Assembly (NCBI RefSeq): GCF_009914755.1
Contig: NC_060925.1
Strand: one strand, 5' to 3'
Length of the DNA stretch: 64,000 nt
Source of the DNA: the human T2T-CHM13v2.0 reference genome, Homo sapiens
Shown here one piece after another: positions 10,326 to 42,924 of the stretch (the stretch's first letter is position 1; the number at the start of each line of letters is the position of its first letter). The translations under genes were made by a program, and so were the position numbers. Below the pieces are notes generated by a model that was given only the letters and a program-made list of their open reading frames with translations, did not search any database and had not been told where the DNA came from.

Positions 10326-10412
10326 ATATTAAGAGTGATTGCTAGCATCCAGATAAAGAAAGGTAAAGGACATCTTTAGACACAAGGACAACAATCACAA
10401 GTTGTTAGTGCA
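10326..10412 (+). pseudogene. MCCC2-like relic exon A, 5' part
   Basis: Follows pyrimidine tract and CCCAG. Reads ...IFRHKDNNHKLLV(H), like the family motif rH..rgKL..ReR. In-frame stops near the start. Confidence 0.55.
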
Positions 10413-12658
10413 TGTATTAGTCTGTTATCATGCTGCTGCTAAAGACATACTTGAGACTGGGAAGAAAAAGAGGCTTAATTGGACTTACAGTTCCACCTGG
10501 CTGGGGAGGCCTCAGAATCATGATGGGAGCTGAAAGGCACTTCTTACAGGGCAGCAGCAAGAGAAAATGAGATGGTTGCAAAAGTGGAAACCCCTGATAA
10601 AACCATCAGATCTCGTGAGACTTATTCACTACCACGACAACAGTATGGGGGAAACCACCCCCATAATTCAAATTATCTCCCACTGGGTCCCTCCCACAAC
10701 ACATGGGAATTATGGGAGCTACAATTCAAGATAAGATTTGGCTGGAGACACAGAGCCAAATCATATCATCCCACCCCTGGCCCCTCCAAATCTCATGTCT
10801 TCCCCTTTCAAAACTAATCATGCCTACCCAACATTCCCCCAAAGTCTTAACTCATTTCCACAGTCCAAAGTCTCATCTGAGACAAGGCAAGTCCCTTCTG
10901 CCTATGAGCTAGTTACTTCCTAGATACAATGGGGGTACAGGTATTGAGTAAATACAGCCATTCTAAAGGGGAGAAATTGGCCAAAACATAGGGGTTACAG
11001 GGCCTATGCAAGTCCGAAATCCAGTGGGGCAGTCAAATTTTAAATCTCCAAAATGATCTCCTTTGACTCCAGGTCTCACATCCAGGTTATGCTGATGCAA
11101 GAAGTGGGTTCCCATGGTCTTGGGCAGCTCCACTCCTGTGACTTTGTAGGGTACAGCCCCCCACCTGGCTGTTTCCATGAGCTGGCATTGAGTGTCTGTG
11201 GCTTTTCCAGATGCATGGTGCAAGCTGTTGGTGGATCTACCATTCTGGGGTCTGGAGGATAGTGGCCCTCTTCTCACAGCTCCACTAAGCGGTACCTCAG
11301 TAGAGACTCTGTGTGGGGGCTCTGACCCACAGTTCCCTTCCGCACTGCCTTAGCAAAGGTTCTCCATGAGGGCCCCGCCCCTGCAGCAAATTTCTGCCTG
11401 GGCATCCAGGTGTTTCCATACATCTTCTGAAATCTAGGCAGAGGTTCCCAAACCTCAATTCTTGACTTTTGTGCACATGCAGGCTCAACATTACATGGAA
11501 GCCACCAAGGCTTGGGGCTTCCACCCTCTGAAGCAACAGCCCAAGCTGTACCTTGGTCCCTTTAAGTCATGGCTAGAGTGGCTGGGAGGCAGAACACCAA
11601 GTCCCTGGACTGCACACAGCATCGGCACACAAGGTCTGGCCCATGAAACTATTTTCTCCTAGGCTTCCAGGCCTGTGATGGAAGGGGCTGCCATGAAGAT
11701 CTCTGACATGCCGTGGAGACATTTTCCACATTTTCCTGTGGAGTAACATTCAGCTCCTTGTTACTTATGCAAACTTCTGCAGCTGGCTTGAATTTCCCCA
11801 CCGAAAATGGGTTTTTCTTTTCTATTGCATAGCCAGGCTGCGAATTTTCTGATCTTTTATGCTCTGCTTCCCTTGTAAAACTGAATGCCTTTAATAGCAC
11901 CCAAGTTACCTTTTGATTGCTTTGCTGCTTAGAAATTTCTTCCACCAGATACCCTAAATCATGTCTCTCAAATTCAAAGTACCACAAATCTCTAGGGCAG
12001 GGACAAAATGCCACCAGTCTCTTTGCTAAAACATAATGTGAGTCATCTTTGCTCCGGTTCCCAACAAGTTCCTCATCTCATCTGAGACCACCTCAGCCTG
12101 GAATTTACTGTTCTTATTGCTATCAGCATTTTGGGCAAAGCCATTCAACAAGTCTCTAGGAAGTTCCAAACTTTCCCACATTTTCCTGTCTTCTTCTGAG
12201 CTCTCCAAACTGTTCTAACATCTGCCTGTTACCCAGTTCCAAAGTCACTTCCACATTTTTGGATATTTTTCAGCAGCGCCCCACTCTACTGGTACTAATT
12301 TACTGTATTAATCCATTTTCATGCTGCTGATAAAGACATGCCCGAGACTGGGAAGAAAAAGAGGTTTAATTGGACTTACAGTTCCACATGGCTGGGGAGG
12401 CCTCAGAATCATGGTGGGAGGAGAAAGACACTTCTTACATGGTGGTAGCAAAAGAAAATGCGAAGGAAACAAAAGCAGAAACCTCCAATAAAACTATCAG
12501 AACTCATGAGACTTATTCACTACCATGAGGACAGTATGGGGGAAACTGCCCCCATGATTCAAATTATCTCCCACCAGGTCCCTCCCACAACAGGTGGGAG
12601 TTATGAGAGTACAATATAAGATGAGATTTGGATGGGGACACAGAGCCAAACCATATCA
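10413..12658 (-). mobile_element. Full-length THE1 (ERVL-MaLR, THE1A-like): LTR-internal-LTR
   Basis: LTRs at 10413-10768 and 12304-12658 (TGTATTA...CATATCA) around a ~1.5 kb internal region. TSD GTGCA / CTGCA. Confidence 0.9.
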
Positions 12659-12663
12659 CTGCA

Positions 12664-12768
12664 TAAGTGACTCAGGTTACTTCCAGATGGTGAGGACTTT
12701 CTGAAGCTGTCGCCCTTACAGGCCATGACTTTTCTCTAGCACTGTCCAGATTGCAGGTGTCTTTCCTG
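12664..12768 (+). pseudogene. MCCC2-like relic exon A, 3' part
   Basis: [32 protein letters not shown] resembles MCCC2 [20 protein letters not shown]...VPGGGIITG. Frameshifts present; no intact GT at the expected end. Confidence 0.65.
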
Positions 12769-39739: not shown

Positions 39740-42560
39740 AATTCCCATTGAATTTTCTTAGCACTTCTGTTGAAAATCAACTGATTAAAAATGTGAAGGT
39801 TAATTTCTGGAGTCTTAGTTTTATTCACTAAATGTATATGTTTATCCTTCTGCCAGTACCACATTTTCTTGATTACTGTTGCCTTGTAGTCGACTTTGAA
39901 ATGAAAACATGTGAGTTCTTCAACTTTGCTCTTCCTTTTCAAAATTGTTCTGGCTACTCTTGGTGTCTTGTATTTTCATATGGATTTTAGAGTTGGCTTG
40001 TCAATTTCTGCTTGAAAGAAGCTAGTGTTTTGGTCAAGATTCAGCTGAATCTGTAGGTAAATTTGAGTTGTATTGCCATCTTAATAATTTTAAATCTTCC
40101 AATTCATGAGCATGGAATGTTTTTTCCTTTATTTAGGAATTCTTTATTTTTTTCCAACTGTGTTTTGTAGTTTTTGTATGCAGGTCTTGAACTTCTTTTA
40201 AGGTTATTTCTACTTATTTCATTCTTTTAAATTGAATTATAAACATAATTGCTTTCTCAATTTTATTTTTTAGGTTGTTCATTTCTGGTGCAGATAAATA
40301 CAACTGATTTTTGTATACTGATCTTGTATCAGCAACTTGGCTGAACTTGTTTATTGGTTCATATATATATATACACACACACATATACATTTAAAAGTGA
40401 ATTCCTTAGAAGTTTCTATATGCAAATTATATAATCTGGGAATAGATATAGTCTTACTCTTTCTTCCCAATCATATACATATTATATCTTTTCTTTTTGG
40501 CTTAATAGTTATGACTAGAACCTCTTGTCCAATGTTAAAGAGTTGTGGTGAGAGCAAACATCCTTGTATTGTTCCTGATTTGGGTGAAAACTTCAGCCTT
40601 CCATTGTAAAGTAAAATGTTACCTGTGGATTTTTAAATAGATACTCTTTATCAGAATTAGGAAATTCCCTTTTATTTCTAATGTTTATCTTTTATCGTGA
40701 ATGATTATTGAATGTTTTTCAAATGTTATATTTTAACCTACTGAGATAATTGTATGGGCTTTGTCCTTTATTCTATTAATGTTGATTATTATATTATATT
40801 ATATTATTGTATTAATATTGATTTTTGGATGTTAGACCAACCTTAAATTCCTAGGAGAAATCCCATTTTGTCTTGGTGTAGAAGCCTTTTTATATATTTA
40901 TATATTTTTGAATTTGAGAATCCTTTTCTTTTGTTTATGATCTCATAAGTGATGTTTTTCTGTAGTTTTCTTTCTTTTCTTTTCTTATTATGCCATTGTC
41001 TGTTTTTGTTATTAGGGTAAAATGCCTCATAGAATCAGTTGGAAAGTATTTTATTCATGTCTACTTCTTGGAAAAGTTTGTGAAGGATTGGTATTAATTC
41101 TTTAAATGTTTGGTACCATTTACCAGTGAAGCCACTGGGCCTGAGCTTTTATTTTGAGAAGTTTTGACGTGACTAATTCAATCTCTTTACTCTAATTGGT
41201 CTATTCAGATTTTCTATTTATTTTTGAGTCACTTTTTGCTGGTCATATCTTCCCAGGAATTTGCCTATTCCACGTCGGTTATCTAATTTATTGGCATACT
41301 GTTGTTCATAGTATTCCCATATATATATATCTATCTTTAAGGTTATTAGTGATATCCCTTCTTTTATTTCTGATTTTAGTAATTTAAGTTTTTTATCTTT
41401 TTCCTTGATCACTCTAGCTAAACATTTTGTCAATTTTGTTGATATTTTCTTTTCTTTTCTTTTTCATTTTTAAGACAGAGTCTCACTCTGTTGCCAAGGC
41501 TGGAGTGCAGTGGCATGATCTCGGGTCACTGCAACCTCCACCTCCTGGGTTCAAGCGATTCTTCTGCCTCAGCCTTCCAAGTTGCTGGGATTATTATAGG
41601 CACCCACCACCATGCCCGGCTAATTTTTGTATTTTTAGTAGAGACAGGGTTTCACCGTGTTGGCCAGGCGGGTCTTGAACTCCTGACCTCAAGTGATCCA
41701 CCTGCCTCGGCCTCTCAAAGTGCTGGGATTATAGGCATGAGCCACCGTGCCCACCCTGATATTTAAAAAAAAAAAAAAAATTTGTTTTGGCTTTATTAAT
41801 CTTCTCTCTTATTTTCTGTTTTCTGTTTCATTTGTTTGCACTCAAATCTTTATTGTTTCTTTCTGCTTATTTGAGGTTTGTTCTTTTTTAGTACTTAAGG
41901 TGGATATTTAAATTATTGATTTGAGATGCTTTTTGTTTTTAATAAAGGTATATGTTTTTAATATATGTATCTTGCAGCTATAAATTTTACTGTAAGCCCT
42001 GCATTAGCTGCATTCCATAAGTTTTGGTATGTTGTGTTTGTTTTCATTTATATAAAGGATTTTGTAATTTCTCTTGTGATTTCTTCTTTGATCCTTTGGA
42101 TATTCAAGAGTGTGCGATTTAATTTCCACATATTTGTGAATTTGCCAAAATTTCTTGCATTACTGACTTCTAATTTATCCCAACTGTGGACAGATAACAT
42201 TTTAAGTATGATCTAAATAATTTTAAATTTATTTAGACTTGTTTTATGGCCTAACATATGGTCTAGCCTGGAGAATGTTTCCATGTGTGCTTGAGAAGAA
42301 TGACTACTCTGCTATCGTTAGGCAGATTCTTCTATAGATGTCTGTTAGACCTGCTTGGTTCATAGTGTTGTTAAAGTTTCTGTTTCCTTTTTGATATTCA
42401 GCCTAGTTCTTCTGTCCAATATTGAAAATGAGGCATTAAGTGGTCTCCAACTATGATTGTTGAATTATCTCTTTCTCCCTTGCATTCTCTCGGTTTTTGC
42501 TTCATGTATTTTAGGGATCTATTAGGTGCATATATATTAACAATTATTATCTGTTCCTAA
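39740..42560 (-). mobile_element. Old L1 (L1M) fragment with nested Alu (41448-41757)
   Basis: Minus-frame ORF2 motifs (YKATVIKKMWYWQKD, YYEQQYANKLDN). Confidence 0.8.
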
Positions 42561-42841
42561 TATGAAATTCACAGAATTCTACAAAACTGTAGGTTTTATT
42601 GCTCATTAGGAACGTAACTTGGCCTCCCTTTCCTCATCTTTAAAATGGTGAAAATAGTACCATGATGGGTGTAGTATGAGGAATAAAAATGCTTAGTAAA
42701 TAGTAGGCACTCGATAAATAAGGTTTTTTTTTTCTCTTGTCTTTCAGAGATTGTTTTCTCATTGAGATTGCATTGTACCAGATTTGGTATTCCTTAGGGG
42801 ATATGTTTATAATCTCTAATCATTGATACTCTTCCTATTAG

Positions 42842-42924
42842 GCTGAACAGAAGAAAATACTGCATTTAGCTCCTCAGCCAGACTGTGGGATGATGGAGTA
42901 ATACTGCCATAGAATCCTTGGAAG
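42842..42924 (+). pseudogene. MCCC2-like relic exon near the C-terminus
   Basis: CTATTAG|L/(+1)EENTAFSSSARLWDDGVILP*NPWK, versus MCCC2 [26 protein letters not shown]. TAG stop at 42910-42912; no intact GT donor. Confidence 0.88.

What the first reader, a model, noticed from the sequence alone, without database searches (positions are those of the whole stretch)
10326..42924. Hidden multi-exon fossil of an MCCC2-like carboxyltransferase gene next to RPE65 (candidate unitary pseudogene)
Seen: six plus-strand exon relics over 33 kb: A 10326-10412 + 12664-12768, B 18313-18505, C 19604-19696, D 33889-34043, E 35436-35545, and 42842-42924. Each follows a pyrimidine tract and AG. Phases chain correctly from B to E (B ends 0; C 0 to 2; GG|A = Gly into D; D ends 0; E starts 0). 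Translations give, in order, [24 protein letters not shown]...PLYSLEEL...DVK, DGS*.QEFKA, GIVGNNG...HFVNLC..RNIPILFL.N, PKIT.VIGG and SSARLWDDGVILP. Established: these are hallmark motifs of the 3-methylcrotonyl-CoA carboxylase beta subunit family. Inference: the introns and the many differences from human MCCC2 argue for an ancient paralogue that died in place, not a processed copy. I recall MCCC2-like genes in birds and fish, but their synteny with RPE65 needs verifying.
Basis: partly seen in the sequence, partly recalled or inferred. Interest (0 to 1): 0.92.

Follow-up and report, generated by a model that had tools for sequence, protein, structure and literature searches.

The report
Dead MCCC2L gene beside human RPE65
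Upstream of human RPE65 lie the broken, intron-separated remains of MCCC2L, a second methylcrotonyl-CoA-carboxylase-beta-like gene that chicken and wallaby still carry, so this is a gene lost on the human lineage rather than a working gene.

Summary
Eight collinear plus-strand pieces (10326-44395) match a carboxyltransferase. They match the tammar wallaby [quoted passage not shown] protein far better than human MCCC2: 64% against 35% identity over 272 relic residues, and 332 against 90 summed tblastn bits. A profile of eight MCCC2L-type proteins puts its nine best hits, out of 4475 six-frame ORF pieces, all on the plus strand and in gene order. In a tree the relic joins the two closest MCCC2L-type proteins, the named wallaby one and an unnamed one (SH-aLRT 99). 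Chicken MCCC2L lies tail-to-tail 19 bp from RPE65, between WLS and DEPDC1, with no human orthologue listed. The human copy has stops, six frameshifts, a mutated donor, a 2246-bp LTR retrotransposon inside exon A, and no trace of the N-domain exons. One relic is new: a terminal exon antisense in the RPE65 3'UTR. Verdict: an intron-bearing unitary pseudogene of MCCC2L, dead for roughly 50-160 My. It is absent from the RefSeq table supplied and from the papers I searched. GENCODE could not be checked. This is a new member of a known kind, of moderate interest.

The parts
10326..10412 (+). Exon A, 5' half (RY*E*LLASR*RKVKDIFRHKDNNHKLLV).
   Evidence: An acceptor ...aacccag| precedes it. It is 12/18 identical to wallaby P0122 residues 40-57 and 16/28 to P0123 residues 105-133, with 3 in-frame stops in the weaker 5' part. 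It hits positions 79-99 of the MCCC2L profile.
10413..12658 (.). A 2246-bp LTR retrotransposon inserted into exon A. Its 356-bp LTRs are at 10413-10768 and 12304-12658. It has TG...CA ends and a 5-bp target duplication (GTGCA at 10408-12, CTGCA at 12659-63).
   Evidence: Self-blastn shows the two LTRs 85.7% identical, with 50 mismatches and 1 gap in 356. The flanks were read. The LTR belongs to a high-copy family: 7700 first-look candidates, 40 scored, of which 39 elsewhere are 88-90% identical over nearly the full length. Removing the element and one duplication copy restores ...KLLV H K * LRLLPD... in frame, against wallaby KLLVRDRLRLVLD. The family name (MaLR, THE1/MST type) is recalled, not tested.
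12664..12768 (+). Exon A, 3' half ([29 protein letters not shown]...).
   Evidence: It is 15/28 identical to P0122 residues 61-90. It has a TGA where wallaby has Arg, and 2 frameshifts. It hits profile positions 99-117.
18313..18505 (+). Exon B, 64 codons with no lesion.
   Evidence: tblastn with P0122 residues 240-303 gives 52% identity and E 8e-16. It is the best hit of P0122 in the whole human genome, E 4.9e-12, and is single copy there. The profile score is 54.6 bits. Its start (split Arg codon, phase 2) and end (phase 0) coincide with MCCC2 exon 8/9 and 10/11 boundaries.
19604..19696 (+). Exon C (ILSQLTD\GS*VQEFKAECETMLVKGLAHLEG).
   Evidence: It is 19/34 identical to P0122 residues 305-338. 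It has a 1-bp insertion near 19626 and a TGA where wallaby has Arg.
33889..34043 (+). Exon D (YLIGIVGNNGELTYQA/LKESHFVNLCSYRNIPILFLLNTTLQCQHRTNLSQ).
   Evidence: tblastn gives E 6.5e-14 and 67% identity in the second frame. There is a 2-bp deletion near 33939. The donor reads CAG|at. The 40-aa piece 33927-34046 retrieved wallaby P0122 as the only hit among 9 candidates. Against Pfam PF01039 it scores 16.7 bits, E 0.003, below the 22.3-bit cut-off.
35436..35545 (+). Exon E (AEDLARRLRTQASKMAT-A-A--PKIT/VIGGCFRIKSYAV). It possibly runs on to about 35560.
   Evidence: It is 29/40 identical to P0122 residues 384-428. It has a 4-codon in-frame deletion and a 1-bp deletion at about 35505-35507. The deletion site reads AAG|gtaatt, which is the 3' end (35506) of exon 1 of the predicted lncRNA LOC124904198 (hub table).
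42842..42924 (+). Exon F (TEENTAFSSSARLWDDGVILP*NPWK).
   Evidence: It is 17/21 identical to P0122 residues 482-502. It has a TAG where wallaby has Gln. The profile score is 27.0 bits.
44316..44395 (+). It lies antisense inside the RPE65 3'UTR (last RPE65 exon 44207-45312, coding from 45161).
   Evidence: It is 13/25 identical to P0122 residues 505-530, with 1 frameshift and 1 stop. E is 7.7e-4 in a 3.1-kb search space. It scores 6.9 bits at profile positions 534-549, collinear with the other pieces. This is the weakest of the parts.

Best explanation
This is the decayed, intron-bearing remnant of the human orthologue of MCCC2L ('methylcrotonoyl-CoA carboxylase 2-like'). MCCC2L is a paralogue of the MCC beta subunit gene MCCC2. 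Chicken and tammar wallaby still carry it.

The relic sits where the intact gene sits in chicken: on the strand opposite to RPE65, tail to tail with it, between WLS and DEPDC1. It cannot encode a protein. Exon A is split by an LTR retrotransposon. At least four stops, six frameshifts and a GT-to-AT donor change interrupt the surviving exons. The exons for wallaby residues about 91-239 (the conserved N-terminal carboxyltransferase subdomain) and about 429-481 are undetectable, so they were most likely deleted.

No other MCCC2L copy exists in the human genome, which makes this a unitary pseudogene.

Shown: the relics, their lesions, their closest relatives, and the chicken gene order.

Inferred: the gene died after the split from marsupials and before the LTR insertion, roughly 50-160 My ago. 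Its only present activity is incidental, as splice sites for a predicted antisense lncRNA.
For: 1. Collinear plus-strand matches to wallaby P0122: residues 40-57, 61-76, 240-303 (E 8e-16), 312-338, 326-394 (E 6.5e-14), 384-428 (E 1.4e-4), 482-502 (E 4e-5) and 505-517.

2. Of 39 query proteins, the summed plus-strand tblastn bits were P0122 332, P0123 301, P0146 251, P0124 211 and human MCCC2 90.

3. Identity on the 272 relic residues: P0122 174/272, P0123 168/272, P0146 131/226, P0124 141/272, human MCCC2 91/257.

4. Tree of 66 rows: relic + P0122 + P0123 has SH-aLRT 99. The six-row MCCC2L group has 100. It is nested in a 28-row group (100) that excludes human MCCC2.

5. Profile control over both strands: the top 9 of 4475 pieces are all plus-strand and in order.

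6. A whole-genome six-frame search with P0122 gave 11 matches. Three are in this window, including the best (E 4.9e-12). Six are in MCCC2 on chr5, one on chr3 and one on chr16. There is no second MCCC2L locus.

7. Chicken gene order and strands come from supplement file 1 of PMC8469556. MCCC2L is also listed with RPE65, DEPDC1 and WLS in that paper's Table 5.

8. Lesions.
Against: - A generic Pfam PF01039 scan of the whole genome listed 25 matches, all in the ACACA, ACACB, PCCB and MCCC2 loci. None was here.
- Exon B alone found nothing in the PDB (1 irrelevant hit, E 0.72). It also found nothing in the 5.8-billion-protein set (25 candidates, 0 at E<=0.01).
- Only one named intact relative was retrieved, and it is a predicted model. 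The other MCCC2L-type proteins are unnamed representatives.
- No 5' exon was found in 1-10420.
- No relic was found for residues 77-239 or 429-481. Best plus-strand scores were 18.9 and 16.9 bits against 16.5 and 16.9 on the minus strand.
- Several relic exon boundaries differ from those of MCCC2. I could not compare them with an intact MCCC2L gene, because no vertebrate genome other than this one is held.
- Chicken synteny rests on a table in a paper's supplement, not on an alignment of my own.
Confidence: 0.93

Rival explanations
1. This is a processed (retrotransposed) or recently duplicated copy of human MCCC2.
For: Human MCCC2 does hit the relics: tblastn E 4.4e-6 for 33854-34010 and E 0.008 for 42850-42909.
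Against: The pieces are spread over 34 kb with splice-site contexts. Identity to human MCCC2 is only 91/257, against 174/272 to wallaby MCCC2L. The tree excludes MCCC2 from the relic's group (SH-aLRT 100). The relics share MCCC2L-specific sequence, such as LFLLNT...LSQAEDL in place of LFLQNITGFMVGREYEAE.
Confidence: 0.01
2. The matches are chance similarity of short motifs in non-coding DNA.
For: Single pieces are weak on their own. Exon B finds nothing in the PDB. The A1, C and G pieces score only 6-7 bits each.
Against: All nine top profile hits are on one strand and in gene order, and the best opposite-strand score is 4.3 bits. Exon B has E 4.9e-12 in a whole-genome search. Reading across the LTR insertion restores the frame.
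Confidence: 0.005
3. The relic exons are retained because they now serve a functional non-coding RNA (LOC124904198, antisense to RPE65) or an RPE65 regulatory or 3'UTR element. On this view they are not merely decaying.
For: Exon 1 of the predicted lncRNA starts at relic E's acceptor (35436). It ends at a donor created at the 1-bp deletion (35506) (hub table). Relic G lies inside the RPE65 3'UTR.
Against: The lncRNA is a single predicted model. Lesion density in exon E is like that of the other exons. Neither expression nor conservation was tested here. This reading does not contradict the pseudogene origin; it only adds a secondary use.
Confidence: 0.1

Closest known systems
[quoted passage not shown]
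   Same: Position and orientation are the same: plus strand, tail-to-tail with RPE65, with DEPDC1 beyond it. Sequence is 64% identical to the wallaby protein over 272 residues. The relics share the family-specific replacement of the NITGFMVGREYE and GAGNYG motifs.
   Different: The human copy is broken. It has an LTR insertion, stops, frameshifts, a lost donor and missing N-domain exons. It spans 34 kb, against 10.8 kb for the chicken gene.
Human MCCC2 (chr5), the beta subunit of 3-methylcrotonyl-CoA carboxylase
   Same: Both carry the Carboxyl_trans domain (PF01039). The boundaries at relic B's start and end are shared. MCCC2 is the best PDB relative of the MCCC2L-type protein P0124 (8j4z, 520 bits).
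   Different: Identity is 35% to the relic and 49% to wallaby MCCC2L. They fall in separate tree groups. At least five intron positions differ. MCCC2 keeps G406-F407 and A447-G448, which the MCCC2L group has largely lost.
Classical human unitary pseudogenes (for example GULOP; recalled, not examined here)
   Same: A single-copy gene that died in place. It keeps its introns and synteny, and intact orthologues exist in other vertebrates.
   Different: The function of the lost gene is unknown. This locus is absent from the RefSeq table supplied and from the papers searched.

Membership tests
Unitary (non-processed) pseudogene | Disabling lesions in the former coding sequence. | tested here: met
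   Four firm stops (A2, C, F, G) plus 3 in the weak 5' part of A1. Six frameshifts (two in A2, one each in C, D, E and G). A donor GT changed to AT after 34043. An LTR element lies inside exon A.
Unitary (non-processed) pseudogene | Retains exon-intron structure, so it is not a retrocopy. | tested here: met
   Seven exons lie over 34 kb. Six of the seven exon starts have a pyrimidine tract plus AG, and three have GT donors. The reading phases chain from B to E.
Unitary (non-processed) pseudogene | No functional copy of the same gene elsewhere in the genome. | tested here: met
   A whole-genome six-frame search with P0122 gave 11 matches: this window (3), MCCC2 (6), chr3 (1) and chr16 (1, E 6.4). 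The tool scores only its best candidates.
Unitary (non-processed) pseudogene | An intact orthologue at the syntenic position in another species. | tested here: met
   Chicken MCCC2L lies next to RPE65, from the Ensembl table in the supplement of PMC8469556. An intact wallaby protein exists. The wallaby's genomic position was not testable.
MCCC2L group of the MCC-beta / Carboxyl_trans (PF01039) family | Groups with MCCC2L proteins rather than with MCCC2 in a tree. | tested here: met
   SH-aLRT is 99 with P0122 and P0123, and 100 for the six-row group. A second tree on relic columns only gave 99.5 for the branch that sets the relic, P0122 and P0123 apart from all other rows. The P0122+P0123 pair has 86.6.
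MCCC2L group of the MCC-beta / Carboxyl_trans (PF01039) family | A match to the Pfam Carboxyl_trans profile above the curated cut-off. | tested here: not met
   The exon D piece scores 16.7 bits against a 22.3-bit cut-off. The exon B piece has no match. The genome-wide PF01039 scan did not list the window. This is expected for single decayed exons. Intact P0122 scores 322.7 bits.
Functional carboxyltransferase subunit | A complete N and C subdomain with both oxyanion holes. In human MCC beta these are A218/G219 and A447/G448, per passages of bioRxiv 10.1101/2024.04.30.591959. | tested here: not met
   The N-subdomain exons are absent from the window. At the A447/G448 columns the relic reads I and K.

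The most novel reading that the evidence does not exclude
The lost gene was not a spare MCC beta copy. The unnamed representatives that group with MCCC2L keep the acyl-CoA oxyanion hole (A218 and G219 in 26 of 26 filled rows). They have largely lost the conserved G406-F407 motif (3 of 27 each) and the biotin-side oxyanion pair (A447 in 2 of 27, G448 in 4 of 27). Outside the group these are kept in 36, 25 (34 counting F or Y), 31 and 29 of 37 rows.

MCCC2L would then be an old, distinct lineage acting as a non-canonical subunit: either biotin-independent or regulatory. The human, and perhaps the whole placental, lineage would have discarded that function 50-160 My ago. Some placental mammals might still keep it.
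Probability: 0.3. Interest if true: 0.7.

Novelty: new member of a known kind. Interest (0 to 1): 0.55.

Why it matters
It adds a well-supported unitary pseudogene to the human gene-loss list. In the sources I could see it is unannotated. It flags MCCC2L as a conserved vertebrate gene of unknown function that humans lack. That matters for three reasons:

- Leucine and acyl-CoA metabolism may not transfer directly from chicken, fish or marsupial models to humans.
- The locus bears on how the RPE65 region is annotated. The relic's exons supply splice sites to an antisense lncRNA, and its last exon lies in the RPE65 3'UTR, a disease-gene locus.
- The MCCC2L group is marked out as a carboxyltransferase lineage with an altered biotin half-site that deserves biochemical study.

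Tried and rejected
I replaced it with my own ORF-piece profile searches.
- A profile of 37 mammalian MCCC2 proteins gave its top hits on repeat-masked stretches (41443-41763, 8599-8856, 26096-26386, 15371-15616). I take these to be an artefact of repeat-derived segments in some predicted isoforms and did not use them.
- Exon B as a query found nothing in the PDB or in the 5.8-billion-protein set.
- The search for N-domain, residue 429-481 and 5' exons was negative.
- A weak extension of exon A2 upstream (TEPNH-I/LHK*) was rejected as chance once the LTR insertion explained the A1/A2 junction.
- A possible extension of exon E to 35560 (CGNTCE|gt) is left open.
- A 2R-ohnologue origin (recalled pairing of DEPDC1 on 1p31 with DEPDC1B on 5q12) is not favoured. 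MCCC2L sits in a 28-row group apart from MCCC2 and differs in intron positions. The unnamed rows' taxa are unknown and the tree is unrooted, so it is not excluded.
- Two Atlas look-ups returned the same generic 'methylcrotonoyl-CoA carboxylase' clusters and did not resolve the group's taxonomic range.

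
Full report
**Observation.** Exon B is 64 codons with no stop. Exons D and E each change frame once.

Human MCCC2 (P0025) was obtained by querying the protein database with an MCCC2 exon found on chr5. It gives collinear plus-strand tblastn hits:
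- residues 268-334 at 18311-18508 (E 0.99)
- residues 341-365 at 19626-19700
- residues 353-405 at 33854-34010 (E 4.4e-6)
- residues 515-534 at 42850-42909 (E 0.008)

Results against an easy reading were as follows. A genome-wide Pfam PF01039 scan listed 25 matches, all in four other loci and none here. Exon B alone found nothing relevant in the PDB. It also found nothing in the 5.8-billion-protein set (25 candidates, none at E<=0.01).

**Identity.** The 40-residue open piece of exon D (33927-34046) retrieved one protein among 9 candidates. This was P0122, 532 aa, named by NCBI 'methylcrotonoyl-CoA carboxylase beta chain, mitochondrial-like isoform X2 [Notamacropus eugenii]', at 71% identity and E 1e-4. 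P0122 is only 49% identical to human MCCC2 (228/469). It matches the window much better than MCCC2 does:
- residues 40-57 at 10357-10410
- residues 61-76 at 12671-12718
- residues 240-303 at 18311-18502 (E 8e-16)
- residues 312-338 at 19626-19706
- residues 326-394 at 33860-34064 (E 6.5e-14)
- residues 384-428 at 35424-35545 (E 1.4e-4)
- residues 482-502 at 42853-42915 (81% identity)
- residues 505-517 at 44316-44354

In the whole T2T genome the best hit of P0122 is exon B of this window (E 4.9e-12). Three of the 11 matches are in the window, six are in MCCC2, and none points to a second MCCC2L locus. Exon B is single copy.

**Relatives and controls.** An exhaustive HMMER search with P0122 gave 11965 representatives at E<=0.001. 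Unnamed proteins are closer to P0122 than MCCC2 is: P0123 at 85%, P0128 at 69%, P0131 at 63%, P0124 and P0146 at 61%, and P0125 at 56%.

Of 39 proteins run against the window, the summed plus-strand bits were 332 (P0122), 301 (P0123), 251 (P0146), 211 (P0124) and 90 (human MCCC2).

I built a profile from 8 of these proteins and searched all 4475 stop-to-stop pieces of both strands. The 9 best hits are all plus-strand, in gene order, at 6.1-54.6 bits. The best minus-strand piece scores 4.3 bits.

A frameshift-aware alignment I wrote gave a read-through of 272 residues with X at each break. Identities on those residues were:

| Protein | Identical / compared |
|---|---|
| P0122 (wallaby MCCC2L) | 174/272 |
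| P0123 | 168/272 |
| P0146 | 131/226 |
| P0124 | 141/272 |
| P0125 | 108/241 |
| Human MCCC2 | 91/257 |

In a 66-row tree the relic joins P0122 + P0123 (SH-aLRT 99). They sit inside a six-row group (100), which is nested in a 28-row group (100) that excludes human MCCC2. The rows were all representatives of 500-680 aa except P0131, plus P0125, P0146, human MCCC2 and the relic. The method was quick LG+G4 and the tree is unrooted.

**Synteny.** The symbol MCCC2L occurs in one paper of the library, PMC8469556. I saw passages of its main text and of supplement file 1, not the whole paper. Table 5 lists MCCC2L with RPE65, DEPDC1, WLS and GNG12 on chicken chromosome 8. The supplement gives these positions:

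| Gene | Chicken chr8 position | Strand |
|---|---|---|
| WLS | 29072809-29096474 | - |
| MCCC2L (ENSGALG00000011255) | 29113515-29124276 | + |
| RPE65 | 29124295-29130623 | - |
| DEPDC1 | 29133310-29143643 | - |

The human-orthologue columns are filled for WLS, RPE65 and DEPDC1 but not for MCCC2L. The human window has the same order and strands. The newly found terminal relic (44316-44395) lies antisense within the RPE65 3'UTR.

**Anatomy and lesions.**
- *Exon A is one exon.* The 2246 bp between its halves (10413-12658) are an LTR retrotransposon. It has 356-bp LTRs that are 85.7% identical, TG...CA ends and a 5-bp target duplication. Its LTR family has thousands of genomic candidates, and 39 other scored copies are 88-90% identical. 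Removing it restores KLLV-H-K-*-LRLLPD, in frame with wallaby KLLVRDRLRLVLD.
- *Other lesions.* There are TGA stops at two codons where wallaby has Arg (exons A and C). There is a TAG where wallaby has Gln (exon F) and a stop in G. Up to three more stops lie in the weak 5' part of A. There are six frameshifts and a 4-codon in-frame deletion in E. The D donor is changed to AT.
- *Missing exons.* Nothing matches wallaby residues 77-239 or 429-481, or any 5' exon. These include the best-conserved parts of the family, and neighbouring exons are still 52-81% identical. I therefore infer deletion rather than decay.
- *Exon boundaries.* The MCCC2 exon map shows that relic B shares its start and end boundaries with MCCC2. 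The relics lack the MCCC2 introns 9/10, 12/13 and 16/17. They also place the C/D and D/E introns 6 and about 9 codons downstream. I could not compare these with an intact MCCC2L gene.

**Age (inference; rates and split dates are recalled).**
- LTR-LTR divergence is 50/356, giving a Jukes-Cantor K of 0.155. At 1.0-2.2e-9 substitutions per site per year the insertion is 35-78 My old. This is a minimum for how long the gene has been dead.
- The relic groups with the wallaby protein, so the gene died after the therian split (about 160 My).
- On relic columns the relic's branch is 0.455, against about 0.18 for the marsupial path.
- Lesion density suggests a neutral K of about 0.1-0.2.
- Together these point to roughly 50-160 My, most likely early in placental history. 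No named placental MCCC2L protein surfaced, but that is weak evidence.

**What the lost gene was.** MCCC2L-type proteins match Carboxyl_trans at 323-362 bits, against 529 for MCCC2. Their best solved relative is human MCC beta (8j4z, 520 bits).

Passages of bioRxiv 10.1101/2024.04.30.591959 name the oxyanion-hole residues of human MCC beta. A218/G219 binds the acyl carbonyl and A447/G448 binds the biotin carbonyl.

Conservation of these residues in the 27 rows grouping with MCCC2L, compared with the other 37 rows, was as follows:

| Residue | MCCC2L group | Other rows |
|---|---|---|
| A218 | 26 of 26 filled | 37 of 37 |
| G219 | 26 of 26 filled | 37 of 37 |
| G406 | 3 of 27 | 36 of 37 |
| F407 | 3 of 27 | 25 of 37 (34 counting F or Y) |
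| A447 | 2 of 27 | 31 of 37 |
| G448 | 4 of 27 | 29 of 37 |

The human relic shows the MCCC2L state: LLNTTLQCQ... and FRIKSYAV. This suggests a non-canonical role for the family. The taxa of the unnamed rows are unknown; the Atlas searches were uninformative.

**Prior knowledge.** No paper held 'MCCC2' with 'unitary pseudogene'. None held 'MCCC2P', 'MCCC2P1' or 'MCCC2 pseudogene'. 'MCCC2' + 'RPE65' + 'pseudogene' gave two clinical-panel papers, judged irrelevant from the listing only. 'Carboxylase 2-like' and related terms gave one plant paper. The RefSeq table supplied with the finding has no pseudogene here. GENCODE and the catalogue supplements could not be consulted, so prior annotation is not excluded.

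**Verdict.** This is a real, intron-bearing unitary pseudogene of MCCC2L. It is an ordinary kind of feature, a gene loss, but apparently an unrecorded one, in a gene family whose function is unknown.

Noticed in passing
window 10413-12658: A full-length LTR retrotransposon (356-bp LTRs 85.7% identical, 5-bp target duplication) lies inside exon A of the pseudogene. Its LTR family has thousands of genomic candidates. The MaLR/THE1-MST label is recalled only.
   Followed up: yes
window 35436-35506: Exon 1 of the predicted lncRNA LOC124904198 starts at relic E's acceptor. It ends at an AAG|gtaatt donor located at the 1-bp deletion that frameshifts the relic. The lncRNA then runs antisense across all of RPE65.
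   Followed up: partly
window 41443-41763, 8599-8856, 15371-15616 (+) and 26096-26386 (-): A profile built from 37 mammalian 'full-length' MCCC2 database proteins matched these repeat-masked stretches at 10-28 bits (profile positions about 192-282). This implies that some predicted MCCC2 isoforms in public databases contain repeat-derived segments.
   Followed up: no
protein P0146 (unnamed representative), residues about 206-430: This MCCC2L-type model carries a long insert between ...SYAM and CGRSF that has no counterpart in the other family members. It is probably a gene-model artefact that reads through an interspersed repeat.
   Followed up: no
alignment of 66 representatives: A 28-row group including vertebrate MCCC2L keeps A218/G219 but has mostly lost G406-F407 and A447/G448 of MCC beta. 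The taxa of the unnamed rows are unknown.
   Followed up: partly
G000:C5:72116359-72116463 (human MCCC2): The MCCC2 intron between exons 9 and 10 is only 105 bp, and relic B spans both exons without it. The MCCC2 exon 12 donor reads AAG|gcaagt, a GC donor.
   Followed up: no
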